Shown here: positions 3,734 through 31,997 of the stretch, piece after piece
Layout of the letters: the number at the start of each line of letters is the position of its first letter
Numbering within the stretch: the stretch's first letter is position 1
From: Nemertoderma westbladi
Taxonomy: Eukaryota; Animalia; Xenacoelomorpha
NCBI GenBank assembly: GCA_032718475.1
Contig: JAUCBJ010000964.1
Coordinates: 1-34,290 of the forward strand
Length of the DNA: 34,290 nt
Direction: 5' to 3'
Notes under the pieces: model-generated
The model's input: only the letters and a program-made list of their open reading frames with translations
Told to the model about the DNA's origin: nothing
The model's database searches: none
Program-made: the position numbers and the translations under genes

Positions 3734-4237
3734 TCAATCAATCAAACAATCAATCCCATTTGACCCATGCACATGATATTTATAAATATACTTTTATTAG
3801 AAATTTTCGAAAAACAGCACTTTTCAACAGCTTGTAAACCATAAAATTGTTTAAGTTTGATTGTTTTCCTATTAAAATATAGAAAGTTTTACATTTTCAA
3901 AAATTAATTAAATTCTTTAATCTGGTTAACAGACACTGCTAACCCATGCACAAAGCACAACAATGTCAGCAGTAATTTTCTAAGTGAAAAAATTTCGAAA
4001 CAAAAAGCTTCGGCACACAGTTTAATTAACATCCTTATACTTAATTTCTGACATAGGTTTTTAACTTACTCACTATCCTAAAGAATATCTGCTGTTTAAA
4101 TGACGTTTTGGAGGTAAATTTAAACTGCTTTTGAATATTTATTGATCATTTGTGTACCGGTATTTACTATGCCTAAATAGAGGATTGTTTGTACTGATAC
4201 AGCTATAATATGGCTAATGAGGCCTAATTGACTAATA

Positions 4238-5175
4238 ATGTTATGGTCTACAACATTGAACGAATTCTTTGGTTCTTCTTGTCAGTTGGATCCAACAAAT
4301 GCAACGGTTTTGCCGACAGCTCTCCAGTGCATGAAGCACATACTATTTTTACGTGAACAAAAACAAAATGGTACCTCAAATACTAGACAAGAGATGAGAA
4401 GTTGTGCTGCAGCAATCCTACAAATATGGGCAAAGGCTGGTGGAATACCAACTGTTTCATCGGTCATTCGACTTGGTAGCTGCCTATTCGAGCTATTCAA
4501 TCGCAGTAAGAAACTTCAAAAAATCCCACTATCTCGGAGGGACAATAAGGATACGGTAAAGCAATTTACAAACTATAAGCACGAGTTGTCACTCTTGTTT
4601 GATGTTGCTGCCTGCAAATGTCGAATTCAACGCAATTGTTGTTGTCCCCGAGACAAAAAAATTACTGATCTTGAATGGGACTTTTTGTGTGATCAGCGCA
4701 AAAAACGATTAATGTTTATGTCGTCAATAGACAGAGAAGCAACTCGAAAACTACACTCTAAAATGGTTCGAAGGAAAGCTAATGGAAAAAACTCACCACA
4801 GTGTCAGCCCAAGTATTTCGAACGAGAATATTACCGGTAATGAATGCGATATTGAACCATATTGCATGGAAGAAGATGTGGCGATTGATATCTGAATATT
4901 CCTCCACAGGTGACAATGATAGTGTTTTTATATTGTTGAACTTTCGAGGCATGATATTACATCAGTAGAAATAGAAACACGGAAGAAGAGTACGAGTTCA
5001 TGTTTGTAACCAAGTATTTCCAAAATTGCTGATCGTTATGAGGTTAGTGATCGGGCTACAGCTGCTATTTGTTCTGCCACTATTGCTGATTTGAATGTAA
5101 ACTCGGATGTCATTGACAAAAATAAAATACGAAATGCTAGGATGAAACAAAGCGATCAACTGACATCACTGTCTA
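4238..5175 (+). pseudogene. N-terminal part of a hAT-superfamily (hATm-type) transposase, frameshifted and 3'-truncated
   Basis: ORF 4238-4840 has IWAKAGGIPTV, LFDVAACKC..CCCPRDKKI..EWDFLCDQRKKRLMFMSSID. From about 5010 another segment reads IADRYEVSDRATAAICSATIAD..VIDKNKIR. I recognise both as motifs of this transposase group. No catalytic DDE region follows. Confidence 0.7.
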
Positions 5176-6594: not shown

Positions 6595-8918
6595 ATGAGT
6601 GAAATATAATATTTGCTTGTCTGGTGTTTTGGCCCAAATATTCTATTACCGGTACTCCTTAAATAAGTCAAATATGGTTTAGTTATAGGCACATTACACA
6701 CCCAGTCATTATTTTCAATAGGACTACTGTTCACTAACCCCCTGTTGCAGAAGTTGATTGTAAGATTATAAAACCTGAAGCAAATAAATTAGCCTCATTA
6801 CTAATACGAGTTTTATTCGCAGAAGCTAGGTAACAATTTAAGATTTGCACATACTAAATTATTGCGTAATATTGTTCGTCTTACGCTTAATTTGTGCCAT
6901 GCACCTTTCGCGTTCAAGAGGTCCAGGCCATCCAGGTTTATGGGACGATGTGGGGTGAAGCAAGATGGATAGCAATACAGCAAAGTAGGTCCTGTCCTAC
7001 ATTAGCACATTTCATTTGTTTTAGTGCAGTGAAGTGCCTGATTTAGCAAATTTGGTTATTTAAGTGAAAACATGTAAACATTTAAGTAACATGCACCGGA
7101 GTTAACAGAGTACAACAGAGTTAATGACATTCATTATGTGGCTCTTGAGACTCATACAGAGAAGTAACATTGTCCCTATTAACTGAATATGATGTGGGAG
7201 TTATTATACTGATTGTTTTAACAATTTAAGTATTAAATCAATTCTTGGCTTGGATACCTGAGGCATATTGGGACAATTCATGCACTTACTAACCCAAGTT
7301 TATGTATTGTCTAGCAATGGTCCAGATATAAATACTGTTCATGGGAATTTGGTAAAAATCAAAGCACAAAGGTAATGATGGCAAGTTAAACATGATATAA
7401 ACAAGGGCAAGTAAAACATAAATTGATTAGGTACTGTATATATAAAAAAAGTATATAAAATGCTATGAAAAGTTAAAAGTAAACACGTAAAAGCTGATTA
7501 CATATATGAGAAAATAATATCAACTATCTTTTCTAGAGCTAAGACTGTTGGCAAAAAAAAAATACTTCCCCACCATCAGCATTCCTTCTATTACCCCCTC
7601 CCCCCCAAACCACCTTATGGTTGCTTGCTGTAACTATACTGCAGCTGCAATGCAGCATGACGATTGTAGTAGTAGCTTGTAACTCAACCTAGATAATTGC
7701 TCAATTTCATTCAGTAGAACGGCTCAGTAGAGTAATCTAAAATAAATTCCTTCTGGGTTGACTGATCATGTAATTAATGTTTGCCCAGCAATGTATTGTA
7801 TAGTAATTGGATAGCCCAAAAAGTGCCGGCTAGTATTGCAGGTTGAAATTTGGCTAATGACCAACTATTTTGACTCTACATAAGACAAATTTTTGGGTAA
7901 TTTAAGACGATTTTTCGCTGGCATTTAGCTGGTATGAATTTATTTACTGAGGTCCAAATTTTATATCTTATATACCATAAATAAAACAAAGGAAGATTGA
8001 GCGATGGAGAATAAATAGTCTCTAACATTAATCTCTCCAAGATAAGAAAGTCTCCAACTTAGAATTTCCCAAAATCAATTATGTTGTTATTTGTGTACTG
8101 CACCCTCACCAACAACGCTCATCCACATTCCTGCAGTTTTGTAATGCAAATGCACTGACTGACAGGTCACAGAGCCAAAAGCAACATGTTGGTGACATAC
8201 CATAAATTAAAAATTAAATTCCTCAAGAAAAATGCTGAAAACCAACTTTTCCTTCCCAAGATAAGTGGAAGTGGGAAGAGATATGGAAGTTGCAGCTATG
8301 CTTTGCGTGTGGCAGGGAGGAGGGGATAAAAAGTAATGACCATGGAGTTATGCAGGTTATTATCTATGATCATGTCAATCGCAGGTGCTGCCGTTAATTT
8401 TCTTTTTATTTAAGGATCTGGTTCTAGTACCGGACTAAATAAATACACTATATTCCAGGTATGGTGCATGCTCTAATGGTGTTAGTGCTAAGTCATAGCT
8501 AAGTCATAATCTGAACAATTATTTAGATTAGATTATTATACAAAGATTATTTTATACAAAGATCATATTATAATATGTACAGTACATATACTAATTATGC
8601 TCTCCAAAAAGCCAATCCGTTTACGTATGATTAAGTAAGAGTATGTAGAGGATTATGCGATTATATATAATTATATGTAGGTATATATGGAACAACACAA
8701 TAATACAAGGAAATTTCCTACTGGCAACGGTACCTCCCGTAACCCGGGATCACTGATGGGCGTGACTTACAGATACCTAGGTCCATCTCCCCCCTCTATG
8801 TATGGGATCTTTCGATTTACGGAGATGGACCCTTCTAGCTATCATGCGAATCTGGTTTATAACTAAATATAGATGTGTATACTGATGAGTTGCATAGGTA
8901 GAATGGCAGGTATAGAAA

Positions 8919-10099
8919 TTACTTTTGAAAGTAATCTCGAGCGAACGCCATTACTCTCTGGGCCATATCTGCACCCTCTTATGAGGCTTCAGGTAGCTGA
9001 TCGCCCGCATTCCTTAACATATCCTTGGTAGCTGTTAGCCAGGCCCGTGCTGCAGGGGATAATCTATCGTTCTTCCACCCTCTATATCTCTCCTGCAACT
9101 CGCTAGAGGACAGGGCTCGACAGATTGTCAGGATTTGTGGATACATGATGGACCGAACCTCATGAGCATGTTCGGTCATATAACCTATGAAGGGGCCATG
9201 TTCGATTAATGCCTTGCATTCGTTCTAAATCCCGGTGAACTCTCCAGGAAGGATAGTGGCCAATTGCCCCCACCTTAGGACTCCCAGCTCGCTCAACGCA
9301 TCGCAGATAATGCCAAAGGATGCAAGGCCTTTGTATTGCATTTGTTCCACCACATTCTTTATAGCTGGGCCCTCAGGTTTGGTCATAAGGGTTAGGCAGT
9401 TTATGATTTGAGACAGGTGAGCAGCTATATGATCTCCACAGATGGTGGCAAATTCAGCCACATCCCCCGGCGAGATAGTGATTCGTAATCCTGATGCCTG
9501 GCATGCCTCTATAAACTTTGTGCATCTCGCCTCGGCAATAGATCCGCGAGACGCAATGCACAAGCATGCAGCTAACCCCACTTTCCGGGACATCCGTAAG
9601 ACTATGGCAGGATCCGCCAGTCGGGCTGCTCGTAAAGGTTGGGTGTTGTGAGTGGCGGCGTCCATGACACCAAACGGATCTATTGCCCCAGTAGCCTGGT
9701 CAATGTCCTCCAGGGTCAGGGCTCCTTGGGCAGTCTGAATTATGGCTCCGTTAATCAGCTCCAATCAGCGACTGCGAAAGGTGCCCGTTGCGTATCCTCG
9801 CTATACAGGTTGCCCCATGATACCTTTTCAGCTGACGTTGGGCCAGCTGGGCATTTGAACTCTATCTCATTCCATATTGCTGGGACATGTTCGAGATTTG
9901 ATGTTTTGGCCGATATTGGCCTTTTCCTTGACATCTTCGACATTAATTCTAAGCCTGGCTGAGTGGATGTCTTAACAGAGCCAACGGAGTTTATTAACCG
10001 GACTTCATCTAGTTTCACATCATAAAGGGAGGGGTCCTCTCTGAATGCACCTAGTATTTGTTGAAGTCCTTTTAGTCGGGACGAGTTTATAGTGGTCAT
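8919..10099 (-). pseudogene. Endogenous viral element: nucleoprotein resembling Jingchuvirales (chuvirus-like negative-strand RNA virus) N, about 390 codons
   Basis: ORFs 9755-10099, 9225-9764 and 8979-9179 join through one frameshift (about 9762) and an in-frame TAG (9225-9227). A further in-frame TAA (8979-8981) reads on to a stop at 8919. The C-terminal half (CIASRGSI..KFIE; VVEQMQYKGLASFGIICDAL..LRWGQLATILPGEF..GPFIGY..VRSIMY..RYRGW) follows the order and spacing of motifs I recall in chuvirus N (KRG; QQA-x-GLT..AL..F-x-W..P-x-E..PYYG..RST-x-Y..Y-x-GW). Intronless and more GC-rich than the flanks. Confidence 0.72.
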
Positions 10100-10921
10100 G
10101 TTTAACCTCTTGCTATTGCTGAGCTGCTAATGCCTAATGCTAATTCGAATGCTAATGTATATATATATATAATTTGTTTGTTATGTTTATATGTTTGACT
10201 CAGCTATTCTGAAGAGGCCGAAATGCATTAATTAACTGGCTGTTTTTTTACAATTATAAATTTTACATTAATATACTGAACATACATTTATTTGTGTTAT
10301 TTATTTAATTATTTCTTCACATAATATAATTTAATGGACAGATTATGATTTGGAACTCAACCAAACTTTTTCAACTTTTTTTATATATATATATATGTAT
10401 AAGCTTTCCCACTATTAGGGCCACCTTTTAAAGGTCCAATGGCCCTTAAATGGCCTTGGGCTTGGAGCAATGGTCCTAATCCTACTACAATGGCCCAAAA
10501 GGTACACGTCCTCTTAGGGCAAATATGGCCTACCTAGAACAAAATGGCCCAATCTAGGCATAATGGCCCAAAATAAACAATTACAAGGAAATTGCCTTTA
10601 GTTCTTATGAATTTAACTTGCACCCCTAGCGGTAAACAATAGTATTTATTATCAATTTAATTCTACAGCCAAAAATGCCTTTGCAGATATTTTAAAAAAT
10701 ATATATATCTACAATAACGTATACAATTTACTTTTGTGTAATTTCTGATTATGAGTTGTACAATAAGTAGTTATTTAGACAATTTTAAGTCTTTCGTTAT
10801 AGATAATTATTATCACTTATGACCGACAGTCAAAAACGCGGATGTGATTTCTCGAGTTAATGGCGCAAAGTGACCGGAAATACAAAATATGTGTTTTTTA
10901 GATGATTTAAAAAATGAATTT

Positions 10922-11776
10922 GTGGCTGGCCACGAGAAAAGGGACCTTATGTCGCAAAACCTGATTCTGAGATAATCGCGTTTAAAGTTTCCCTCTATTT
11001 TTGAACAAATTTAATTGGATTATCAATTTAGAAATGTATAAAACGATGAGGGAAATTCAAATTAGTTCTGATATTCAATATACCTAGGAACTAACTAATT
11101 ACAGGAAGCAATATAAGATGTTGCAGTATTGTATATCCCACTGTTTTAGGCTTTTCATGTCTGAATTTAGGACTGAAATAAATTCTACTACTGTACAGTA
11201 ATATGTAGGTACTGTAGGCCTACAGTTATTTTTTAAATGCAATATGGCTGTCATTTTCTTAATTTATCTTCGTTAGTTCTTAAATTTTGTAATCCCATTA
11301 AAGAATTCAAAATACAAATAATTTTAAATTTTGCTAAAAAAATTTATCTTTTTGAAAAAATTTTAAATTAAAAAAAAATTTTTTGGTTAAAAAACAATGT
11401 TAAAAAAAACATGTTTTTTTGAAAATTTTGCAAATTTTTTTTAAAATAGTTCATGAACAATATTAATAGTTTCAAAGTGTTAAAAGTTGTATAAAAAGCC
11501 GAATAACATTGAGCTGCCTAACTATATAGTAAGAATTGCTATGATATTATTAATATTTTCCATTTTTTTAAATAATAGCTTATTATAACCGCTATTAATA
11601 AAAAACTTTTTGCTACCCGATTCACCTTCACATAAATCGCTATAACTTTTTTTAGAAATAGATATTGAGACACAGTTTTTTTTGTTAAAATCTCTGAAAA
11701 ATTCTGCATCTCATAGGCCTAATAACTCAAAATCGACCTCCGGTGACATAAGGTCCCTTTTCTCGTGGCCAGCCAC
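10922..11776. mobile_element. Non-autonomous DNA transposon (MITE), Sola1-like
   Basis: Perfect 32-bp TIR gtggctggccacgagaaaagggaccttatgtc (10922-10953 and 11745-11776). The 4-bp TSD ATTT (10918-10921, 11777-11780) fits the AWWT target of Sola1. Non-coding AT-rich interior. Confidence 0.82.
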
Positions 11777-12282
11777 ATTTATTTAAATTTCAAACATTAG
11801 TGGCGGTGTTTTCTACCCAAAACAATAAACAATACCTTTTCACTAATGGTCAATTTTCGCCACTATTTGGATGTCTCAGCCGTTTGAAGATCGAAACTTG
11901 TGCAAACAAAATATGTTAAATTGTAAATAACAATACTGTAAATAACAACAGGTTTTAATAAATTCTCACTGACAAGCGATTAAAATTTATGCTTTTTTAA
12001 GAAATAATGTATAACCGTTCGGTACCTCTAGGAAGGATAACTTATCACTATTTCGCGTACTATACACTTCATTATCAACATGTTGTCATTGGTGGGGGAT
12101 TAGTTTATAGACTAGCCTAAATACATCTTACGACCCCTACGAATTCCATCCCCCACCAGTAATTCATATATTGGAGACATAAATGTAGACGTTTTGCCTC
12201 TTACCCTAATGTAACAATTATCTATAGGCCTATTAAATATAATGTAAATTTTATCCCGTATTAATTAAATCTAATAACTATT

Positions 12283-15412: not shown

Positions 15413-16102
15413 TTCAACTTACTGAACTACCTTGGAAGCACGCAGATTCAACTCACTGAACAACATTGGAAGCACGCAGATTCAACTGACTCAACTGCCT
15501 TGGAAGCACGCAGAATCAACAGACTCAACTACATTGGAAGCACAAAGATTCAACTGACGCAACTACCTTGGAAACACGCAGATTCAACTGACTCAACTGC
15601 CTTGGAAACACACAGATTCAACTGACTCAACTACCTTGGAAGCACGCAGATTCAACTGACTCAACTACATTGGAAGCACGCAGATTCAACTGACTCAACT
15701 ACCCTGGAAGCACGCAGATTCAACTGACTTAACTACATTGGAAGCACGCAGATTCAACTGACTCAACTACCTTGGAAGCACGCAGATTCAACTGACTCAA
15801 CTACCTTGGAAGCACGCAGATTCAACTGACTCAACTACCCTGGAAGCACGCAGATTCAACTGACTCAACTACATTGGAAGCACTCAGATTCAACTGACTC
15901 AACTACCCTGGAAGCACGCAGATTCAACTGACTCAACTACATTGGAAGCACGCAGATTCAACTGACTCAACTACATTGGAAGCACAGATTCAACTGACTC
16001 AACTACATTGGACGCACGCAGATTCATCTGACTCAACTACCTTGGAAACACGCAGATTCAACTGACTCAACTATCTTGGAAGCACGCAGATTCAACTGAC
16101 TC
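15413..16102. repeat. 34-bp minisatellite, about 20 copies
   Basis: Unit gattcaactgactcaactac(c/a)ttggaagcacgca, head to tail, no spacers. More diverged at the left edge. Confidence 0.95.
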
Positions 16103-16570
16103 ATATATATATATATATTTATCTGCAGCTGTTTTGAGCGCCATAAATGGAACTTATATTTTTTGATATTTATTATTGTCTTTTATTTTAAGTTGGTACA
16201 TGATTTTTGAATTTGGGGCTGCTCAGAATTGATGTAGCGGTTATTTCCACTAATTTTAACCCACCACCCTCACTTATATCTCAGTTTTGAAATAAAAAAA
16301 TAAAATTATATATTAACCTCATAATTAAAAACTACCTCACCCTTGGTACCACCATCGATGCCACAGTTTTATCACGAAATTGCTAACACCATCGCACCAT
16401 AACATAAATTTTAGACAGTAACTAATAGCAATAGGGTTTGTACTTACAGTATAGTAAGAAATGTGTTTTATAATATGTTTTAATTTTAAAATAATCATTA
16501 ATTAATTCGTATCGTTAATCGTTAATTATAGCATCACATCTTGACAGTCGCATTTGACAATATTATATTG

Positions 16571-16800
16571 TGTAGAGAGCGTAGTCTCTCAACGTTTAAT
16601 ATTTACATGAGTCAGTACAGCAGTAAGTAAAACCAGTATTAGTAATGACTACGGGTACAGCCACTGTCTGACTGTAACAATAGTTTCCATGAAACCGAAA
16701 GTTGATACAGTGCAGTGATGGGTGCATACTGCAGTAAGGTACAACAGTATTAGTTCAATTAAGGTTCGATGACCCCTAATATATATATATGGCCACTACA
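16571..16800 (-). repeat. 3' LTR (230 bp)
   Basis: tgtagagagc..ggccactaca. I see 2 differences from the 20708-20937 copy. Confidence 0.96.
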
Positions 16801-16811
16801 TGGCTCCCCCC
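16801..16811 (-). promoter_or_regulatory. Polypurine tract plus CCA before the 3' LTR
   Basis: The minus strand reads GGGGGGAGCCA immediately before TGTAGTGGCC. Confidence 0.85.
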
Positions 16812-16821
16812 AGAACCTGAA

Positions 16822-19338
16822 TTAATAAAAATAGTCCGGCTGCCGGATGGCCCGCCCACTTCGAGTTGCTATGGTAGTTTGCGGTGGTTCGGGTGAATTG
16901 CAGGGACTGGGGGGAGGGAGGTCCGGGGGTGTCACTGTAGGTGGTCGACCACGGCGCGGTGGGATGGCCACAATGACGGGTTCATCGATAGCGAGGTGGG
17001 CCGGTTTGAGTCTGTCGATGGAGACGGTCTCCTGACGCCCGCCCACCTCAATGACGAACGTCTTTGAGCCGCGCTGTACGACCTTGTACGGCCCGGTGTA
17101 GGGCCGCTGTAAGGGAGCGCGGTGAGCATCAGTGCGTAAAAAGACATCGTCACTGGTTGTTAGTTGTGACGGCACTGACGATTTGGGTTGGCCATGACGG
17201 GAGGTTGGTGTGGGCATGAACTGCCGTGCGTGGTAGTGGAGGCCCGTGAGGAAAGCTGTCGAGTTCGGAGGGTCGGTTGGCGAGGCAACGAAGTCGCCAG
17301 GCACCGTCAGTGGCTCGCCGTAGACCAGCTCGGCCGATGAGCAGTGGAGGTCCTCTTTGGGGGCGGTCCGGTAGCCCAGAAGGGCCCATGGCAGTTCGTC
17401 GACCCAGTTTGGTCCAGTTAGTCGGGCTCTAAGGGAGGCCTTGAGGGAACGGTGGAACCGTTCCACCAGGCCCTTTGCCTGCGGATGGTAGGCCGTCGTC
17501 CGGTGGAGTTTGGTGCCGAAGAGTCTGTTGACGTCGGCCCACAACTCTGAGGTGAACTGACTGCCGCGGTCGGAGGATAGTTCGACCGGTACGCCGAACC
17601 GGGCGATCCAGTGGGCGAGGAGAGCGCGGGCACAGCTCTCGGTTGTGGAGTCGGCGAGCGGGATGGCCTCGGGCCAACGAGTAGTCCGGTCGACGATCGT
17701 AAACAGGTAGGTGGAGCCTCTGGATGGAGGGAGGGGCCCTACCAGGTCGACGTTGACATGGTCGAACCGGCGTCGAGGAACAGAGAATGTCTCGAGGGGG
17801 GCCTTTATATGGCGTTGAACCTTAGAGGTCTGGCAGGCGACGCAAGCCTTGGCCCAGCTCGTCACTTGTTTGGACAGGCCGTGCCAGACGAAACGCTCGG
17901 AGAGGAGTTTCCTAGTGGAGCGGATTGATGGGTGGGACAGCGAATGGACCACATCGAACATGTGGCGGCGCCACGTGCTGGGGACTATCGGCCGAGGTCG
18001 GCCCGTAGAGACGTCACAGAGGAGCGTGACGTCATCGTCCGCGAGTGTGACGTCATGTAGATCAAGGCTACCAGGGTTTGCCTGGAAGGCCTGTAGTTCG
18101 TCATCCTCCCGTTGGGCGGCCGACATGGCCTTATAGTCGACCCCGAGTTGGGTCGACAGATGGCCCACGAAGCTGCGAGAGAGGGCGTCCGCGACCTGGT
18201 TGTCCTTTCCGTCTACGTGGCGTACATTCGTGGTGAATTCCAAGATGTACGCCAGGTGGCGCTGTTGACGGGGGGACCAGGGGTCAGTGACCTTTGAGAA
18301 GGCCTGAGTTAGGGGTTTATGGTCCGTGTAGGCCACAAACGTTCGGCCTTCGAGAAAATAACGGAAGTGGCGGACCGCGAGGTATAAGCCGAGGAGTTCG
18401 CGGTCGTAGGCGCTGTACTTCCGTTCGGGAGGGTGAAGTTGTCGGCTGAAGAACGCGAGCGGTCGCCACTTTCCATCGGTCCACTGTTCTAGTGCCGCGC
18501 CGACAGCTGAGTCTGATGCGTCGGTGGTGACGGAGGTCGGCGCATCGTGGCGAGGGTGGACGAGCATGGCGGCGTTTGCGAGGGCCCGCTTGGAGGACTC
18601 GAAGGACGCGGCTAGTTCGTGAGTCCAGTCGACGTCCCTAGCCTTGGTGGCGACGGCGGCGTAAAGTGGCTGCAGTGCGGCAGCAGCTGCGGGTATAAAT
18701 CGGTGGTAAAACGTTACCATACCGATAAACTCCCGCAACCCTTTGGTGGTGGTTGGACGCGGGAAGGAGCGGACGGCTTCTACCTTTTCGGGGAGCAGAT
18801 GGGCGCCGGATGCATTTACGACGTGGCCCAGGAACTGGATTTCCACCACCCCGAACACGCACTTCGCAAGGTTGACAACAAGGCCGTAGTCTTGGAGCTG
18901 CTGGAAGAGTTGACGCAGATGGGCGAGGTGTTCCTCGGGGGTTGCACTCGCGATGAGGATATCGTCGAGGTACACGTAGAGGAAGTCCAGCCCGGAGCAC
19001 ACAGAGTCCATCAGGCGTTGGAAGGCCTGGGCGGCGTTCTTGAGGCCGAACGGCATACGAACGAATTCGAAGAGGCCGAACGGAGTGACAACGGCGGTCT
19101 TGGGAATGTCTCCGGGCGCCACGGGGATCTGGTGGTAGCCCCGCACCAGATCGACCTTGGAGAATATCGTGGCCCCTGCGAGTCGCGCCGAGAAGTCCTG
19201 GATGTGCGGGACGGGGTACCGATCGGGGGTCGTGGCGTCATTGAGGAGACGGTAGTCGCCGCAGGGCCGCCAACCGCCGTTTGGTTTGGGCGCCATGTGG
19301 AGGGGAGACGACCAGGGGCTATTCGAACGGCGAATAAT
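16822..19338 (-). CDS. pol: Pol: reverse transcriptase, RNase H and integrase; open frame, but separated from the protease frame by a frameshift
   Basis: [47 protein letters not shown]; RNase H TTDASD..YDRELL..TDHKPL; integrase H-H-C-C (HSLSHP..CVAC), [23 protein letters not shown] motif. Confidence 0.95.
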
Positions 19339-19993
19339 TTGATAATTTAATAATCACCTCCATCTTGTGGAACTCTTCACGCGCGATCTCGAGTTTATCG
19401 AGAGGGAGTCGACGGGCGCGGGCGTGAACGGGAGGACCAGTGGTCGGAATGTAATGCTCCACGCCGTGGCGAGTAGACGAGTCCGAGAAGGTTGGCGTCG
19501 TGATGGCGGGGAACTCCGCCAGGAGGTCGGAGTAAACTCGGTCCACGGAGGTCGACGCGAGGTGAGGATGGGTTCCCGGGATGGTGGAGGAGGAGCAACG
19601 GAGGGGGATCGGCTGGAAAGTTTCCATGTCGATGAGTTGCTGCCCCTTAACGTCAACCATCAGGGCGTGGTCGCAGAGGAAATCAGCCCCAAGCAACGGT
19701 TGGGGGACGTCTGCGATGACGAAGTCCCAGTGGGTCCGCCGGTCATTGAACCGCAGGGGGATAGAGCGCGTCCCGTAGGAACGAATCGATGATCCGTTGA
19801 CGGCGCGGAGCGGCGGCCCAGTACGTCCGGAACGGGTGTCGAATCCGCTGGCGGGGAACACACTCACCTGGGCGCCGGTGTCCACGAGGAAGTGGCGCCC
19901 GGAGTTCCGGTCCCAGAGGTAGAGGAGGTTATCCCGCTGTTTGTATCGACCAGTCGACGCCGCGGCTACCGTCGGCTGGTCGGGGCGTTTCCC
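19339..19993 (-). CDS. Pol N-terminus with aspartic protease
   Basis: [10 protein letters not shown] and LLGADFL motifs, then [19 protein letters not shown] leading into RT. Entered from gag by a predicted -1 frameshift. Confidence 0.9.
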
Positions 19994-20648
19994 GGGAAGG
20001 AACACGGCGCCTTGCACTGCTTGGCAGCGCTACCGAACCGAGCGTGGTAGTAACACACGCTTTTGGTGTCAGGCTGAGCAGTGCCGGAGGAGTTTGTGGA
20101 GGAGTCCGAGTCGAGTTTGTCATCCCCCTGTTCACGCCGGCCAGTTGGGATTGTCCCTGGCGTTTGGCCAACCAAAGAACGTCGGCGGTCGCAGCCAGGG
20201 CGCGGGGGTCCTCGAAAGAGTCGTTGGAGATTTGTAGCCGAATGTCCTCGGGGAGCTGTTCGAGGAAGAGTTGCTCGAACAGCAAACACGGCGTGTGCCC
20301 GGTGAGGAGCCCCAGCATCTCGTCCATGAGTTCGGACGGCTTGCGGTCGCCCAGCCCACGCATATGGAGGAGTCTCGCAGCGCGCTCCCGCCGACTCAGG
20401 GCGAAAGTCCCGAGGAGCCTCGCCTTCAGTCCCTCGTACTTCCCATCTGTAGGCGGAGCGGTGAGTGTGTCGAGGAGGCGAGTGGCGGTCGGCTGGTCGA
20501 GAGAGGTGACGACGTGATAGTACTTTGTCGAGTCGTCGACAATCCTCCGGAGTTGGAACTGGGCCTCCACCTGCGCGAACCAGACGGATGGGTTTTCCGT
20601 CCAGAACGGGGGCAGTTTGATGGCGACCGCGTTGAGGTCGTTAGCCAT
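19966..20648 (-). pseudogene. gag: Gag with one internal frameshift (about 20100-20140)
   Basis: N-terminus VAIKLPPFW..WFAQVEAQF..LGDRKPSELM. The C-terminal CYYHARFGSAAKQCKAPC..PGN motif is in a different frame (ORF 19966-20289). Confidence 0.88.
19987..19993 (-). promoter_or_regulatory. -1 ribosomal frameshift slippery heptamer G GGA AAC
   Basis: X XXY YYZ in the gag frame, 5 sense codons before the gag stop. The -1 frame is the protease ORF. Confidence 0.8.
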
Positions 20649-20693
20649 CGGTAGCTACAGAGCTACGCCTGTACGCGAAATCCGTTCGCGCAA

Positions 20694-20706
20694 GTCTGGG
20701 TCACCA
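20694..20706 (-). promoter_or_regulatory. Primer-binding site, tRNA-Trp-like
   Basis: TGGTGACCCAGAC, 1 nt inside the LTR end. Eukaryotic tRNA-Trp typically ends ..GTCGGGGTCACCA. Confidence 0.85.
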
Positions 20707-20707
20707 A

Positions 20708-20937
20708 TGTAGAGAGCGTAGTCTCTCAACGTTTAATATTTACATGAGTCAGTACAGCAGTAAGTAAAACCAGTATTAGTAATGACTATGGGTACAGCCA
20801 CTGTCTGACTGTAACAATAGTTTCCATGAAACCGAAAGTTGATACAGTGCAGTGATGGGTGCATACTGCAGTAAGGTACAACAGTATTAGTTCAATTCAG
20901 GTTCGATGACCCCTAATATATATATATGGCCACTACA
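20708..20937 (-). repeat. Inner 5' LTR (230 bp)
   Basis: Near-identical to the other two LTRs. Confidence 0.96.
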
Positions 20938-20958
20938 TGATCTCGTCTGGGTCACCAA

Positions 20959-21188
20959 TGTAGAGAGCATAGTCTCTCAACGTTTAATATTTACATGAGT
21001 CAGTACAGCAGTAAGTAAAACCAGTATTAGTAATGACTATGGGTACAGCCACTGTCTGACTGTAACAATAGTTTCCATGAAACCGAAAGTTGATACAGTG
21101 CAGTGATGGGTGCATACTGCAGTAAGGTACAACAGTATTAGTTCAATTCAGGTTCGATGACCCCTAATATATATATATGGCCACTACA
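20959..21188 (-). repeat. Extra outer 5' LTR (230 bp)
   Basis: I see 1 difference from 20708-20937. It carries the TSD-adjacent end and is separated from the inner LTR by 21 bp. Confidence 0.96.
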
Positions 21189-22739: not shown

Positions 22740-24200
22740 TTGAAAAGTTTTCAACAAACCTACTATAAAAATTAACCATGCCTGTGAATGTCTGAACTTC
22801 TTTTTGACAACCAGGTTTTGTTTAACTGATAATGGAAGATACTTTTTCAGGGTCCGATGTTATCGTACCATTCCCCACTATGTATCAAAGTACTCTCACA
22901 GATTTTTTTCCAAATATACATTTCTTTGGATTTAATTTCAAACCATCACGTCGCATTCTTTAAAATGCGGCTTTAATCATTTGTAGATGGTCCTCTATTG
23001 AACGACTAGATAACGTGATGTCGTCTTGATATGGAGGGACATTGGAGATATTCTGCCTAGTTTTTGATATTTCGCGTTGAAATTTTGGTCCTGAATTACA
23101 CCATCCAAATGGTACGACAGTGAATTGATATAAATTGTCACCCGCTTGAAATGCTGTCTTTAGTCGTGATTCCTCATCCAAAGGTATTTGCCAATACGCA
23201 GATTGTAAATCTAAGGTAGAAATCACATTGGCATTAGCTAGCTAACTCATCAAGGATATCATCAATTCGAGGTAATGGAAATTGGTCATGTATAGTAATA
23301 TTATTTAACTTTTTATAATTAACAACGAAACGTTTTTCACCTCCTTTCGATGAATTACTAAAAGGCAAGGAAATACCCAGGGAGAACTACTGTGCTCTAT
23401 GACATCCATTTTCAGCATTTTATCCACATGTTCCAGTATTTCCTTGGTCTCGGCTGGGCTCTTTCTATATGACCTAATTAATATATATCGGATCATTATT
23501 TTGGGTTTCTATTTTTACATTAGCTTCAATATGATGTCCCAAATCTGAAGAATCCCTTGAAAATATATCCGAAAATTCCCAACATATTTCTTTCAAATTT
23601 TCAACCTCTTTAGATGACCAGCTTATCAGGAATTTAAAATTGTTTAAGAATTCCCGTTTTACTAAGATGTTGTTCTCATTTTTATCATTTATAGCCACTG
23701 CACAACAACCTTTGTTGTTATCATATGGGAAAGAAATTTCAATTTTTCCAAAATCGATAACAATTTTCAAGGACATTAATATATCTTTGCCTAATATAAC
23801 TTCGAAATCGTTACTTGGCATTCACAAACCATTCACAAGTAACACGATCCCCTATACGAAACTCAAAATACCCGTATTCCGTCACAGTAAAATTAAAACT
23901 ACCCAGAGTTGTGAACAACTTTCGAGGTCCACTCCTAATTTGTAATGCAGCTTCTCTAAAAATTTTTAAATCAGGCACAAAACTATAATCAGATCCAGAA
24001 TCTATTAATGTTTTACAATTCTTACTCACACCTATCACCACATTGTTGTAGATAAGGCTGGCAATGACATTAATTTCCCGTTGTCATTGACAGACCTGAT
24101 CCGTTTTTTTGGTTTATTTCTACAAACAGATGCTACATGATTCATTTCACCACATTTATAACATACCTTTCCTTTCCAACAACGTTGTGCTGAATGGTTA
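22740..24200 (-). mobile_element. Old, AT-rich, degenerate Ty3/Gypsy gag-PR-RT fragment
   Basis: CYKCGEMNHVASVC knuckle (about 24126-24167), LIDSGSD protease, ILGKD, SSSPWVFP, LDLQSAYWQIP..KTAF..VPFG..YQDD, LKLNPKKC, GMVNFY. Many stops and frameshifts; truncated on both sides. Confidence 0.9.
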
Positions 24201-26140: not shown

Positions 26141-27966
26141 CTATTCCTTCGCTGAGCGTGCTCGTCCACGTCCTCTAGTGCGATTTGGTGGTGGTCGAGG
26201 TCGAACTGGGTTCGGACTTCGGTGTCGAGTCGTCGGTGGTTCCAAAACGCTAGGAAAGGGGACGACGGGAGTTTCGCACATCCGTCGTGCACTCAATCCT
26301 CTAAATCCTCGTCCGATTCCAATGGTCGACTTAGCATCGGATCGAGTCTCCACAACGCTAGGAGGAAGTCGAAAGGTTGGGACTGTTCCATCCGCTGACA
26401 CCTCGCTCTCTGACGTCGTTTGGGTTCTAATGGGTTCAGGCAAAGCGTATCCTGTCCCTCCGCGTGGTTCTCTAGCAAGGGAAACCGTGCCCCGAGTCAT
26501 CCGGATTTGCGACTTCGATGCCGTCCTCTCGGCGACATTTACTACCTTCTTTATCTCTTGTCCGGCCTTCTGGGCTTTGAGTATACGAAATTGCTGATCA
26601 TCCTGTGGGTGACGCGTCTTCTCTGCTAACGGCGTGGCCTTGAAGCCAGTCTCACGCAAAACGTCGGTCTCGTCCAGAATACACGAGGTTACGCATTTGT
26701 GATAAAATGCGCTCCGGTATGCCCAAGCTATCGAATGCCAGGCTCCTCGATTTCGCTATTCAACTCGCAGTTTATCGAATTCTCCGGCGGTAATCTTGTT
26801 CATCATAGTTTGAAAGTTCCAAGTATTCTTGTTGTCGGGGTGCACCTGTAAGAAATAGTCCCGCACAACTTTGAATCCACTGTCCAATGGCAATATATCC
26901 AGCACCTCCAACAATTCATCATACTGAGGCATAGCCGATACATATCCTTCCTTTGACATTATGAGAGGGTTTACGGCGGCCCAAAATCCCAAATGTGCTC
27001 TCATAGGGAAACGGCGTCGCTGCGTCGATACATGCTCGTCTGCTAGATCCTCCCAATGGTCGAATAACTGTCGGACGATTTTAACTGACATGTGCTCATA
27101 GGGGACGTCTCTAAGTTGACATTCCGATGCCCTATGGCCCTTAATATTACAATACGTGCACTGCGCCACGAAACGCCAGCAAGTGTAGAAAGTGTGCGAA
27201 CGTTGATCCCCGCACCAGTTGCATACTAAGTCCGGTAGAGAGATATGTGCTTTGCTCCGCATTTCTTTGCGTGATGGCCAGTTGCCCCGCATCTCCCACA
27301 AATAGTGTTGGCAGGGTACCAAACTCGCTCATAGATGAGATCTCCGATGGGGCGAGCGCTACCATCCACGTGATAATTCTCATCATCCGGGTCAGTCGGT
27401 ATGTTCGTCTCCGTAGGTTGTACACAAACCATAGCATCGCTTTTCTCCAACTCGCGTATCTGTTAGTTTTTAGATCTGTTAGATGTTGTACTGTTAGTTG
27501 TTGGCAGTACCCTATCTATTTCAAAAGCAGTATAGTGTCCCGGGACGAAACCCAGATGAATAACCACCCCCGCTGCCCTGATGATAATATCGTTCCCCAT
27601 TTGCCCATCCCACGTATGAATTTTGAAAGTGTAACCCAATGAATATGAAAGGGCACACAATATTGCATGGGTTCCCCATTCCGCTCCGTGACGTAGGTTC
27701 TCTATATACCTTGCGTATGTTTAACCCCCCCATTTCCAAAAATCCACGATACTCTGGATTATCATTAAAAAAATTGGCGGCCGTATTACGTAACTCACCT
27801 ACATTGTATAACTGTGCAGTTCCTAGGTATACGGCGGTGACTATCGAGGCAAACATGCAGTCCCCGTCGTCACCGCTGCATTCGAGTTGCATTAGTCCCA
27901 ATTGGGCAGCAGCCCGGCCCACAGTCCGCCCGGTGTTGATCATCTCCACCACTATCGGATTCCAAG
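26141..27966 (-). pseudogene. OTU-family cysteine protease plus three CCHC zinc knuckles, an unknown region and an Arg/Pro-rich tail (about 600 codons)
   Basis: GDDGDCMFASI..LRNTAANF / YIENLRHGAEWGTHAILCALS..IHLGFVPGHY (OTU Cys, WG and His boxes); CGRCGATGHHAKKC, CNWCGDQRSHTFYTC, CTYCNIKGHRASEC. Frameshifts in a G-run (about 27725) and a CT-run (about 27240); in-frame stops at 27463 and 26756. Confidence 0.8.
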
Positions 27967-28275
27967 CTGAAAAATATAAAAATAGATAATATCATAAAAA
28001 GTTAGATCTTGCATCTCAGATAAAACTCCTTCTCCACTCCCAATATCCAGTGACTGGCCGGAATCAAGTGGTCTGAAAATTCCGCCACCAGCATCGACGT
28101 TTTCCCCCCGGGTGTCGGGAATAACGGCAACATTATTTTAAATTTGATTATTCTACTTATATGGGGAGGGGCGAGCCGTGAAGTGTGTGAAAGCATATAG
28201 GTGTCACTGGCGAGTTGCCTTATCGCCGTCTGTCACCACCACAAATTTTTGATTGCTAATAACTCAATTATTTCG

Positions 28276-28585
28276 TGATTTGATGAAAAAAAGGGGTGAG
28301 CCATGAAGCGAGTGAAGCCTTAGCATATGGGTACCATTAGCGAGTTGTGGGGGCGAGCTACGATGAAGTAAGGAAGGTTATTGTATTTATAATATTACTA
28401 TTTTAATTTGATTATTTTACTTAAATCTGCCATCACTTTTATTTAAAAATTTCTCCCGCCACCTCACCCACTTATCCCGCCATCGCCATCTGCCCAAGTT
28501 ATTTTGTTGATTTGATGAAAAAATAGGGCGAGCCATGAAGCGAGTGAAGCCTTAGCATATGGCTACCATTAACGAGTTGTGGGGG
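28276..28585. repeat. Intergenic 78-bp direct repeat x2, plus a diverged third copy near 28168
   Basis: tgatttgatgaaaaaa..ggg.gagccatgaagcgagtgaagccttagcatatgg.taccatta.cgagttgtggggg at 28276-28353 and 28508-28585. Confidence 0.85.
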
Positions 28586-28633
28586 AGCATGTAGGTACTA
28601 TTGTTGAATTTGCCGATTATTATTGTTATTATA

Positions 28634-29060
28634 TTAATTGTCGTAATTATTACTTACATTAATTTTCGGTAGGTGGCAGTGTGTGAATTTCACCAACCAT
28701 CCGCGGCGGAATATGCACATCGGCCGCCGACTGGCTATCGGCGAGATAGCAATCCCCGGGCGCGCCGGGAGCACCCCATCTTTACGTGGTACGTCCCGTA
28801 TTCTATCTTCCCACGCGAATCTCCGCGCTACCATCATTAAATGTCGCCCCCTTGTTAAGGGGCGATGAATGAAGGCAACAGACAACAGACATCGGTTTAT
28901 AGGGTTTAACTTCGGGCGTTATAAATGTCACCGTTGGTTTATTAGGCCTCCTAAGTGGTTCGATAGCACCCCCTCGAGGCCCCCACCCAAAAGTTTGGGG
29001 CACCCTACCAGAAACTGGTATTTGTTGGTTGGGTTCAACGATTTTATTCGCTTCAGCCAT
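28634..29060 (-). pseudogene. Unknown basic Arg/Pro-rich protein (about 140 aa) split by a 7-bp duplication
   Basis: ORFs 28803-29060 and 28634-28885 fuse in frame if one copy of aacagac (28877-28890) is removed. A GTAAGT donor-like site lies near the end. Confidence 0.5.
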
Positions 29061-29494
29061 TATAATACAGAAATTATTATACTGCTATATGGCCAGTCAA
29101 CCATGTCAAACGCTCCCCCCCCCCCCCCCCCCCCCCCCATTAATTAAGCAATCTGATGTAAAACCGAATTCAACATCTGATTTACCACCCTTCAACTTAG
29201 AAATCGCCTCAGCTACCAATTTGGCAGAAACAGACATACTTTCGTCAATAACAAGATTTTGCAATTCTGAAATAGTTTAGAATCAACGATTATAATATAT
29301 TTTAAAAATCGGAAAAAATGAACAACAGAGGGTGGCATACACTACACCAATAATATAATATTTTTTTCAGATTATTAAATCGCCATTTATATTTACTATA
29401 GTACAAAGCGGTTTGGTTGAATGGCTTAGTGTGGAGTGGGGTGGTGGGAAGAATATGGAAGTTTATAGAAGAACAAACAATAATTCTTATGACA

Positions 29495-30560
29495 TTATGT
29501 AATAAGCCTCTCTTCAATAAACTCCTTTACTTTATTCGGTTCTGATGGCCATATATATGATATATGGGCATCAGCCTCTGCTGATATGGTTGTCTCCCCA
29601 TCCGCCTGTGTGATGGTACCCCACATCGACCATCCCACTACAGACAAACCACATTCTCTATTGATTCTTCCTGCAATACTTTTTCTCTGCATTCTTCAAG
29701 GCTGGAACACCGAAATTACCAAGAGGTAAAGTCAGCGGAGAAGGATTAATAAAAAGTTTTGATAGATTGAAAGAGAATAGCCCGTCCTCGGCTTCTGGAA
29801 ATCCTGGAATTTCTGGATTGATAAACATTCCAGCACACCAGTTGGCTGAACGCCTGCTCTTATAATAACACACACATACTGCCTCCTTGGTGCTGGCATG
29901 TTTATCGCACAGAGCCCACTACACCTCTCCCTACAACACACACCCCGGAGATACTGACTTTTACACACTTGTAGCTAAACATATGAGTGTCAGTATCGCC
30001 AGGGTATTGGTTGTAGGGGACGTAGGGAACTTCGTACACTGGGCCAGGGGTTAGTTTTATAGGGGATCCAGTATGTATAATGGGATTAGACGAGTCGTTG
30101 CTCATATATTTACAGTTGAAATATGCAATCCATAATCCACAATATACAATCCACGATCGTGTATCATGGACTTCCTTTGTTCGTAATTTCAATTTATCCT
30201 GATTTTACCTTTAAAACCTACGCAAATGGAGTTGAGGTTAGAATTCTGAGTTTATCTAAGAATAGAGTTTTTAATCTCAAAAAAAACATATTTTGGATGA
30301 TGCCGTTCGTCAGTTGACTACGCTTAGTAAGACACCAGGACATAAAGAGGAGATCATAATGCGAAACATGGAGCTCTTGGGATGTTGTCAATTTGGAGGG
30401 CGCAATTATTATATGATGGCGGGCCTTTGATCTAGAACTCGATACATGATTATCTTGTTGCCATTATCTCGTCATGATATTGACGTCACACCTCTCCTTT
30501 GTTCTTTCTCTAACATATGAACACTTTCCATTGTCATATTTTAATCATCTACCTCTATAA
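29495..30560 (-). pseudogene. Decayed gene of an unnamed Cys-motif family
   Basis: Joined frames: NKIIMYRVLD..SSLCPGVLLSVVN..NPIIHTGSPIKL..EVPYVP..CSG/LCDKHASTKEAVCVCY..FSFNLSKLFI..INRECGLSVVGWSMWG..HISYIWP. Several frameshifts. Confidence 0.5.
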
Positions 30561-30633
30561 AAAGCTATCATGATGGCCACGGTTCACTCTAGAAACATTT
30601 CCATATAAATTTTTATCCTTTTCTGTCATCTAA

Positions 30634-31755
30634 TTACAATGTTTTCTTACATATAAGAATATATTTACTTTTTGTATTAACTTCGCCAAACCCTTCAGCT
30701 AATTTGCCATGAAATACCGAATCTTCAACAAACTGAAATGTATACTCTTCATTCCAACGAAATGAAGCTTTCATTACTGACCTACATCTTTTTGTGTTAA
30801 AATTTAATTGTATAACACATTGCTGTAAGAAGTTACCATGTTCAGTGGGCAAACTCTCACCTCTACCATTATTGTAAGATTTACAAATAACGAATATATC
30901 CTTGCCTGGAATGTGATTCATCATTTCAACATTATCAACCATATCAACTGTAGGAACAAGATCACAAATATCTCCTGCAACCTGATCTGCGACCATATCA
31001 CCTAAATGTAAGTGGCCTAAAACCACACTAATTTTCTCCAGGCAATCAGTAACATTCGTATTAGACCTTGGAACCCTTGTGTTATTATTGACAACACGCT
31101 GCAGATAATTTAGAACTGACTGTTGAGTGACGATTTTCGGTTCAATATTCAACAATGTGTGATACAACACATGGCAATACATTATACAAACTGCAATCAT
31201 AAACCTGGTGCTAAATTGTCTACTTTATGAATAACCCAAGGTCTCATTCCAGTACTTGATTAAGTCTGTATACAAGGCATTTCTTTTCTTGATATTTCCC
31301 TAACAGATTGTTTCCCAATTTTTATCACTCGTTGCTTTCTTATAACAATATCAATATGTATCATATGTCATATGTGCTGTATCAATATGTATTGCTCCTT
31401 GTAAATTATCCTTTATTTTATCAGGTGGCGGCAAATCATGTCTTTACATCTTCCACATAATTATCTTCTAGGTTAGGTCTACCATCCCTAACGAATTCAA
31501 TAACATCCACTCTGTATTCCAAAATTAGTCTATTAGCCTTCTCTAATCTGTTATCATCATAAAAACAAATGGAAACTGAATCCGCGGATCCAACTCTATG
31601 AATGTTGAAGATATTCTGTTGTAACCACCTTTTGTATTTATCGTCCGATACGAATCCACATGCTATCCAACTCTTGGTACTGATTACATGGGGTGATATC
31701 TTTGCCATAGATAATACATCTGGCCACGCGAACAAGTATCTTGCATTATCGTCAC
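30634..31755 (-). pseudogene. Decayed unknown gene (ORF remnants of 99 aa and 188 aa)
   Basis: Acceptor-like ttacag at 31756 followed by ORF 31436-31735, a stop-broken linker, and ORF 30634-31200. Long open frames in AT-rich DNA; no family recognised. Confidence 0.4.
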
Positions 31756-31997
31756 CTGTAATATATTTAAAACTTTTTTAAATATAAAGATTAAATAAAA
31801 TATAACATCAAACAAAAAAAAATGAAAAAAAGACTGCAGACACTACAGATGCCATAGATAATACATCTGGCCACGCGAACAAGTATCTTGCATTATCGTC
31901 ACCTGTAATGTATTTAAAACTTTTTTAAATATAAAGATTAAATAAAATATAACATCAAACAAAAAAAAATGAAAAAAAGACTGCAGACACTACAGAT
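31704..31997. repeat. Recent 147-bp tandem duplication
   Basis: 31704-31850 and 31851-31997 are nearly identical, with tg microhomology at the junction. Confidence 0.92.

What the first reader, a model, noticed from the sequence alone, without database searches (positions are those of the whole stretch)
8919..10099. Near-complete endogenised nucleoprotein gene of a divergent chuvirus-like RNA virus
Seen: three adjacent minus-strand ORFs join into about 390 codons with only one frameshift and two in-frame stops, intronless and GC-richer than the flanks. Knowledge: the C-terminal motif series fits Jingchuvirales N as I recall it, and non-retroviral EVEs are made by retroelement RTs and often sit in piRNA clusters. 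Inference: this is a fairly young cDNA of a whole N mRNA from a possibly undescribed virus lineage. The N-terminal half is unrecognisable to me, which suggests high divergence.
Basis: partly seen in the sequence, partly recalled or inferred. Interest (0 to 1): 0.85.

Follow-up and report, generated by a model that had tools for sequence, protein, structure and literature searches.

The report
Fossil chuvirus-like nucleoprotein gene with sisters
A broken gene related to chuvirus nucleoproteins, but far from the known ones, lies in the DNA of what is likely an animal, and a diverged sister copy occurs in the same species, so it is likely a fossil of repeated past infection: an ordinary kind of viral fossil, from a virus lineage that is likely unsampled.

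Summary
Observation confirmed. Minus-strand 10099-8919 holds about 393 codons with one frame change and two in-frame stops; 0 of 500 shuffles match this. Two DNA contigs span it without gaps and show the same breaks, so these are not assembly errors.

The 281-codon 3' part is a chuvirus-type nucleoprotein homologue. A profile of six N proteins from L/G/N or G/N viral contigs scores it 25.3 bits. The best of 2000 shuffles scores 6.4 and the best of 86 other viral protein clusters 0.5. It is only 15-19% identical to those six, which share 26-37% (one pair 86%). Family is therefore open and a qinvirus origin is not excluded.

New here: a sister copy, 81% identical over the unrecognisable N-terminal frame, differs mostly at silent sites (dN/dS about 0.05). 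Alleles of this copy instead drift (8 of 10 changes replace a residue). A structured 3' tract is 88% conserved in another piece. 'Fairly young' is only partly supported; piRNA use is untested.

The scan noted qin- and paramyxo-like N fossils in other genomes, but no look-alike of this DNA. Verdict: new member of a known kind.

The parts
9755..10099 (-). Frame A: N-terminal part of the nucleoprotein gene (114 codons plus stop)
   Evidence: no family match; coding shown by sister copy, 22 of 29 listed differences at codon position 3
9758..9764 (-). Only overlap of open frames A and B; most likely site of the frame change
   Evidence: stop map; no gap in the spanning contigs
9225..9764 (-). Frame B, first piece (179 codons, ends in a premature stop); holds the conserved N core
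   Evidence: best of 623 window ORFs against the chuvirus N profile, E 4.1e-5, next 0.5
8979..9224 (-). Frame B, second piece (81 codons, ends in a premature stop)
   Evidence: aligns to the C-terminal part of chuvirus N
8919..8978 (-). Frame B, last 19 codons and terminal stop
   Evidence: length after the conserved Trp equals that of chuvirus N
10100..10151 (-). Likely 5' untranslated leader, shared with the sister copy
   Evidence: sister aligns to 10121; its loose end resembles 10122-10151 by eye
8608..8918 (-). Likely 3' untranslated region; 8608-8840 is 88% identical to another piece in runs X1 and X3
   Evidence: X1 record 2: 27 other letters, 5 gaps; X3 records 14 and 17
8725..8840 (-). 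Predicted RNA structure: two adjacent three-way junctions on the coding strand
   Evidence: z -3.35 on the minus strand, -1.07 on the plus; rank 3 of 590 tiles, with tile phase chosen to fit it; no Rfam match
8561..10283 (.). Low-depth span between host repeats that contains the whole insert; exact ends unknown
   Evidence: contig ends and depth

Best explanation
This is a broken, near full-length gene homologous to chuvirus nucleoproteins, present as host DNA, and likely a dead endogenous copy from a divergent Jingchuvirales-like RNA virus, likely reverse-transcribed from the N transcript by a host retroelement. Steps: (1) Shown: N homology, DNA form, intronless layout, three shared breaks. 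(2) Inferred: a viral RNA carrying N and both untranslated flanks was copied by a retroelement reverse transcriptase and inserted in the germ line. An LTR-element route (template switch or repair-mediated insertion) is favoured over LINE insertion because no poly(A) or target-site duplication is seen. (3) Inferred: related but distinct strains were captured more than once. The sister differs at dS about 1.6 and dN about 0.085, which is selection on the protein, most simply in the replicating virus. (4) Shown for alleles, inferred for history: this copy now drifts neutrally and makes no full protein. (5) Untested: any present role would be as an RNA source (antisense piRNA). The living virus's N would have wrapped the genomic RNA between two helical lobes (established knowledge of Mononegavirales N; fold match weak to moderate here).
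For: Unbiased phmmer over 1.84 billion proteins gave 4 hits at E<=0.001. One is a repetitive secretion-tail protein judged spurious. The other three score 204, 136 and 23 bits on a profile of six N proteins from contigs with PF24664 glycoprotein and, in 4 of the 5 scanned, PF00946 polymerase. The element scores 25.3 bits, E 3.5e-10, against a best of 6.4 in 2000 shuffles. hhalign gives 96.5%, E 7.8e-10, 204 columns. It scores on 1 of 87 viral protein clusters; the next best is 0.5 bits. All top 50 BFVD rows that carry a name (46; 4 unnamed) are negative-strand-type virus proteins, led by chu-like N. PDB top rows are paramyxo- and filovirus N: Z 8.4, rmsd 6.6, 217 aligned; Z 8.3, rmsd 4.0, 167 aligned. 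Sister copy: 19 silent against 6 replacing codons, no stop, and only this frame behaves so. Alleles: 2 silent, 8 replacing; Fisher p 0.007 against the sister. A Ty3/gypsy element lies 6.5 kb away on the same strand.
Against: The sequence signal is thin: E 2.7e-5 to 7.7e-4 in the unbiased search, where a false hit ranked first. Identity to chuvirus N is 15-19%. The folded model was built on a chuvirus-rich alignment (pLDDT 63), so its ranking of chu above qin (rank 21, E 3.5e-3) is not independent; the single-sequence model (pLDDT 39) found nothing. The six reference N proteins were fetched with a pattern drawn from those hits. No PDB match reached E<=0.001, and Z near 8 is middling for a helical protein. 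Frame A matches nothing. No L or G gene is in the window. No insertion signature ties the copy to any reverse transcriptase. The dN/dS rests on 42 codons and 29 of that contig's 40 differences.
Confidence: 0.72

Rival explanations
1. It is an N fossil of another Haploviricotina lineage, such as Qinviridae, Yueviridae or an unnamed order, and only distantly resembles chuvirus N.
For: Lies outside the sampled chuvirus N set with a very long branch, next to P0005 (support 82/93, unrooted, possible long-branch attraction). A qin-related N is at rank 21 in BFVD despite the chuvirus-biased model. Qinviridae N is structurally grouped with Chuviridae N (PMC10888975, passages). Earlier scan notes report qin-like N fossils in other genomes (unchecked).
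Against: The unbiased search returned proteins that are firmly chuvirus-like (136 and 204 bits). Rhabdovirus and partial paramyxovirus N clusters do not score.
Confidence: 0.17
2. The copies form a host-maintained (domesticated) N gene family, or cargo of a mobile element with a structured 3' end; this window's copy lost function recently while the sister may still work.
For: Strong purifying selection between copies. The sister contig is 1925 bases with no stop in the 42 codons compared. The 3' tract is conserved at 88% and predicted to fold. Large chuvirus N/L-like open frames are reported among vertebrate EVEs (PMC11521997, passages).
Against: dS about 1.6 is easily reached by an RNA virus and needs a long time in a host. 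No intron was gained. The 3' tract has low depth, unlike the neighbouring mobile repeats.
Confidence: 0.08
3. It is a decayed cellular or transposon gene and the viral resemblance is chance.
For: Weak E-values; a false hit ranked first; no Pfam hit.
Against: Profile score far above shuffles and above 86 other clusters; colinear to the stop codon with chuvirus N; chuvirus N proteins also have no Pfam family.
Confidence: 0.03

Closest known systems
Chuvirus nucleoprotein-derived EVEs: 92 in teleosts, amphibians, squamates and marsupials (PMC11521997, passages); rarer than glycoprotein EVEs in insects (PMC10084718, passages)
   Same: Single N-like gene as host DNA, homologous to chuvirus N, several copies per species
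   Different: Much further from sampled chuvirus N (15-19% against 26-37% among them); host unidentified; sister copy and structured 3' tract recovered
Nucleoprotein of Jingchuvirales (ICTV profile PMC10770922, whole text; loci L002, L003, L008, L012, L013, L014)
   Same: Conserved core aligns over 204 columns; same length after the conserved Trp; BFVD top hits
   Different: N-terminal 114 residues unmatched; one extra residue before the Pro-aromatic motif and a shorter later loop, both shared with P0005; no L or G to place it
Aedes aegypti nrEVEs beside LTR retrotransposons and in piRNA clusters (bioRxiv 10.1101/127498, passages)
   Same: Repeat-rich setting; nearest LTR element on the same strand
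   Different: No LTR sequence abuts the insert; no small-RNA data; chuvirus EVEs there are mostly glycoprotein and linked to Bel/Pao elements
Mononegavirales N (Paramyxoviridae, Filoviridae, Rhabdoviridae, Bornaviridae; PDB 7nt6, 4z9p, 7ev8)
   Same: Predicted all-helical fold aligns at Z 6-8
   Different: No sequence match

Membership tests
Jingchuvirales (ICTV, PMC10770922) | Placement in the L-protein phylogeny | not testable with these tools
   No L in the window; no host genome held; no RNA holder listed
Jingchuvirales (ICTV, PMC10770922) | 9.1-15.3 kb negative-sense genome with 2-4 ORFs (GP, NP, L) | not testable with these tools
   Only an N-like gene is present; L and G profiles found nothing in six frames
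Jingchuvirales (ICTV, PMC10770922) | Nucleoprotein homologous to jingchuviral NP | tested here: met
   25.3 bits against 6.4 for shuffles and 0.5 for other clusters; hhalign 96.5%
Chuviridae proper | N falls inside the diversity of chuvirid N (proxy; the formal criterion is L) | tested here: inconclusive
   15-19% identity against 26-37% (one pair 86%) among six references; long branch, unrooted tree, references not assigned to family
Qinviridae / Yueviridae | N closer to qin/yue N than to chuvirus N | tested here: inconclusive
   Only a biased fold search (qin-related N rank 21); no such sequence known to be in the panel
Mononegavirales (Rhabdoviridae, Paramyxoviridae) | Sequence match to family N profiles | tested here: not met
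   No Pfam hit at E<=1; rhabdovirus N clusters (16 and 4 members) and a 5'-truncated paramyxovirus N cluster (3) score below 0 bits
Haploviricotina N fold | Two-lobed helical nucleoprotein fold | tested here: inconclusive
   All top PDB rows are such proteins, but Z<=8.4, E>=0.029, the model is alignment-biased and lacks frame A
Non-retroviral endogenous viral element | Present as DNA continuous with host sequence | tested here: met
   Overlapping contigs from runs guessed to be DNA link it to high-depth repeats on the left; flanked by such repeats on both sides
Non-retroviral endogenous viral element | Inherited: same locus in more than one sample | tested here: met
   Held by 3 of 6 listed runs, two samples of two studies, each differing from the window
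Non-retroviral endogenous viral element | Retrotransposition marks (poly(A), target-site duplication); common but not required | tested here: not met
   No A-run of 5 or more on the sense strand between the stop and 8407; only low-complexity direct repeats, and the best lies inside the tract shared with another piece
piRNA-cluster EVE | Antisense, 1U-biased 24-30 nt RNAs map to it | not testable with these tools
   No small-RNA run offered

The most novel reading that the evidence does not exclude
The copies record an undescribed family- or order-level lineage of negative-strand RNA viruses, basal to or beside Jingchuvirales. It repeatedly entered the germ line of a host group with no such virus on record, and its N transcript ends in a conserved pair of three-way-junction RNA structures (possibly a nuclease-resistant or packaging element); one sister copy may still be intact and kept by the host.
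Probability: 0.2. Interest if true: 0.65.

Novelty: new member of a known kind. Interest (0 to 1): 0.38.

Why it matters
Chuvirus-like N fossils are common, so the kind is not new. This one samples N-protein space well outside the chuviruses tested: only three credible relatives among 1.84 billion representatives. It comes with a diverged sister that shows the otherwise unrecognisable N-terminal frame to be coding, and it keeps untranslated flanks with a conserved predicted RNA structure in an order whose replication and translation are listed as unknown (PMC10770922). It gives a probe for finding the living virus lineage in RNA data from this host group, and for testing whether EVE-derived piRNAs occur there.

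Tried and rejected
Searches that found nothing: word-indexed protein search with the element; tblastn-confirmed locus searches in viral contigs with the element, P0006 and P0005; PDB sequence searches; Pfam on the element; Atlas on frame A (a blank that shows nothing); Rfam on 7500-11000.

Patterns built on the element's own motif spacing gave 1 viral and 19 metagenome loci, none a homologue; another pattern gave 0. Of the 15 loci, 9 were not homologues and were dropped. P0003, the top phmmer hit, was rejected as a 3314-aa repeat protein with a secretion tail. The single-sequence fold was too poor to use.

No RNA holder was listed, and run X5 gave no cover; neither is evidence. An 11-base AT repeat at 8662 and 10164 was rejected as a target-site duplication (low complexity; homology to another piece continues past it). 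A hammerhead in the 3' tract was considered by eye and not found; no model-based test beyond Rfam was run.

Not available: host genome, cluster look-up, the wide structural search, Atlas for later queries. A paper on invertebrate viromes had 0 occurrences of my terms (PMC11097642). One search for structured chuvirus untranslated regions returned 1 unrelated paper; that is too narrow to show absence from print.

Full report
Observation. The minus strand carries frame A (ATG 10099 to stop 9757-9755, 114 aa) and frame B (9764 to 8919, 281 codons with stops at 9227-9225 and 8981-8979). The open frames overlap only at 9764-9758. With one frame change allowed the region has 2 stops; the lowest of 500 shuffles had 4. 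GC is about 50% against 32-39% in the flanks. Three of six listed runs hold the stretch, from two samples of two studies, all guessed to be DNA. Single contigs from X2 and X3 span all three breaks with 0 gaps and 9-10 other letters, none listed at a stop. The breaks are therefore real and shared.

Identity. Pfam, PDB sequence, word-indexed and viral-contig searches were blank. An unindexed phmmer over 1.84 billion representatives gave 4 hits: a spurious repeat protein (P0003) and three unnamed proteins, P0004-P0006. To name them I scanned viral contigs with a short pattern from their core. Six of 15 loci encode homologues. Five were scanned in Pfam: all have the PF24664 fusion glycoprotein, four have PF00946 polymerase and one is a G-N segment. 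These are chuvirus layouts (PMC10770922, whole text; PMC10888975, passages).

A profile of those six N proteins scores P0006 204 bits, P0004 136, the element 25.3 (E 3.5e-10) and P0005 22.9. The best of 2000 shuffles scores 6.4. The unbroken piece 9228-9764 is the best of 623 window ORFs (E 4.1e-5, next 0.5). hhalign gives 96.5% over 204 columns, with P0006 among the seven rows. The element has 116 residues after the conserved Trp, against 111-116 in five references, so it is colinear to its stop.

Rival families. I fetched 120 further loci by a polymerase motif, a partial scan of about 550, and clustered 190 ORFs from 126 loci into 87 clusters. Only the chuvirus N cluster scores the element; the next is 0.5 bits. 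Pfam on 15 representatives shows the panel includes rhabdovirus N and truncated paramyxovirus N; no qinvirus or yuevirus N is known to be in it.

A model built on a 10-row alignment (pLDDT 63) hits 16 BFVD entries at E<=0.001, the named ones chu-like, with a qin-related N at rank 21. In PDB it matches paramyxo- and filovirus N weakly (best E 0.029; Z 8.4, rmsd 6.6, 217 aligned). The model is biased by its alignment; the single-sequence model was useless. Core identity to the six references is 15-19%, against 26-37% among them (one pair 86%), and the tree puts the element on a long branch with P0005 (82/93, unrooted). It works like a chuvirus-type N; family and even order membership need L, which is absent.

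Sister copies. At 80% stringency a 1925-base X1 contig, and a shorter X2 one, align to 9915-10121 with 40 differences and no gap. Of the 29 listed, 22 are at codon position 3 (p 3e-6). Nineteen codons change silently and 6 replace a residue, with no stop; only frame A gives this pattern without stops. Over 42 codons dS is about 1.6 and dN 0.085. Its loose end continues in frame, 6 of 9 residues identical by hand. So frame A, which matches nothing known, is coding. That it belongs to the same protein as frame B is inferred from adjacency and total length (about 393 against 411-636 aa in the references).

Alleles of this copy differ at 10 coding sites, 8 replacing, unlike the sister comparison (Fisher p 0.007). 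Selection acted before, drift acts now. Two stops imply about 4% decay, with a wide interval of 0.5-14%.

3' tract. Another piece (X1, X3) matches 8608-8840 at about 88%, while the next 30 bases match 17 of 30 by eye. 8725-8840 folds on the coding strand into two adjacent three-way junctions (z -3.35, plus strand -1.07). It ranks 3 of 590 tiles, but 15 tiles reach z<=-3 and the tile was chosen to fit. Rfam has no match. This is suggestive of a functional viral RNA element, not shown.

Mechanism. Shown: DNA form, N homology, decay, sister copies. Inferred: reverse transcription of an N-sized viral RNA with its untranslated flanks by a host retroelement, more than once, from different strains. 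No poly(A) or credible target-site duplication was found, which slightly favours an LTR-element route like that proposed for Aedes EVEs (10.1101/127498, passages). A gypsy element lies on the same strand 6.5 kb away, but nothing ties it to the insert. A piRNA role is untested; horseshoe crab EVEs gave no such RNAs (PMC12282059, passages). The host is not identified by my calls; an earlier unchecked note calls it an unidentified fast-evolving animal.

Novelty. Chuvirus N EVEs are published: 92 in vertebrates (PMC11521997, passages), and they are known though rarer in insects (PMC10084718, passages). Chuvirus-like sequences are also reported from a sea anemone (PMC6085071, passages). PMC6932829 was seen as passages only and added nothing decisive. 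No supplements were opened, and EVE tables there could list this locus. Since the host is unknown I cannot say this locus is unpublished. The scan holds no look-alike of this DNA but has similar N fossils of other families elsewhere, which prompted the qinvirus rival.

Verdict. New member of a known kind, from a likely unsampled lineage. Interest 0.38.

Noticed in passing
window 16557-21188 (-): Ty3/gypsy element, GC 59-64% inside: DUF7041 gag at 19929-20654, 843-aa RT/RNase H/integrase frame at 16822-19353. One LTR is tandemly doubled (251-base period, 99-100%) and 94% identical to the other.
   Followed up: partly
window 10921-11777: MITE-like insert with perfect 33-base terminal inverted repeats; the empty-site joint 10917 to 11777 is seen in runs X1, X2 and X3.
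   Followed up: partly
window 26141-31777 (-): Cluster of minus-strand frames of 80-204 aa, with sub-threshold zinc-knuckle (E 0.0032) and OTU-like protease (E 0.0096) hits; the rest are unmatched in Pfam. Possibly a large mobile or viral element.
   Followed up: no
window 10242-10250 (-): A T-A7-C run about 140 bases upstream of the ATG resembles T-A5-C runs beside N in L012 and L013. The 9-mer occurs twice in the window on both strands. Weak hint of a viral gene-junction signal.
   Followed up: partly
window 8919-10099: 4 of 10 allelic differences are transitions at CpG sites (crude p 0.006), and CpG observed/expected is 0.65 against 0.90 for the window; possibly host methylation.
   Followed up: partly
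window 8561-10283: Contig depth over the insert is lower than over the left flank in all three holding runs (40 against 66-70; 58-76 against 79-105; 426 against 533). Could be GC bias or empty-site alleles; depth is not a copy number.
   Followed up: no
window 15413-16103: Tandem array of a 34-base unit, about 20 copies, 91% matches.
   Followed up: no
window 22960-23241 (-): Decayed reverse transcriptase fragment (RVT_1, E 4.3e-15), same strand as the insert and the gypsy element.
   Followed up: no
window 4232-4840 (+): 202-codon frame without a Pfam match; resembles a DNA-transposon protein by recall only.
   Followed up: no
L002, about 480-600 bases after N: A 116-base window folds at z -4.7 (20 shuffles), the strongest of the windows tested after N in the six reference contigs.
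   Followed up: no
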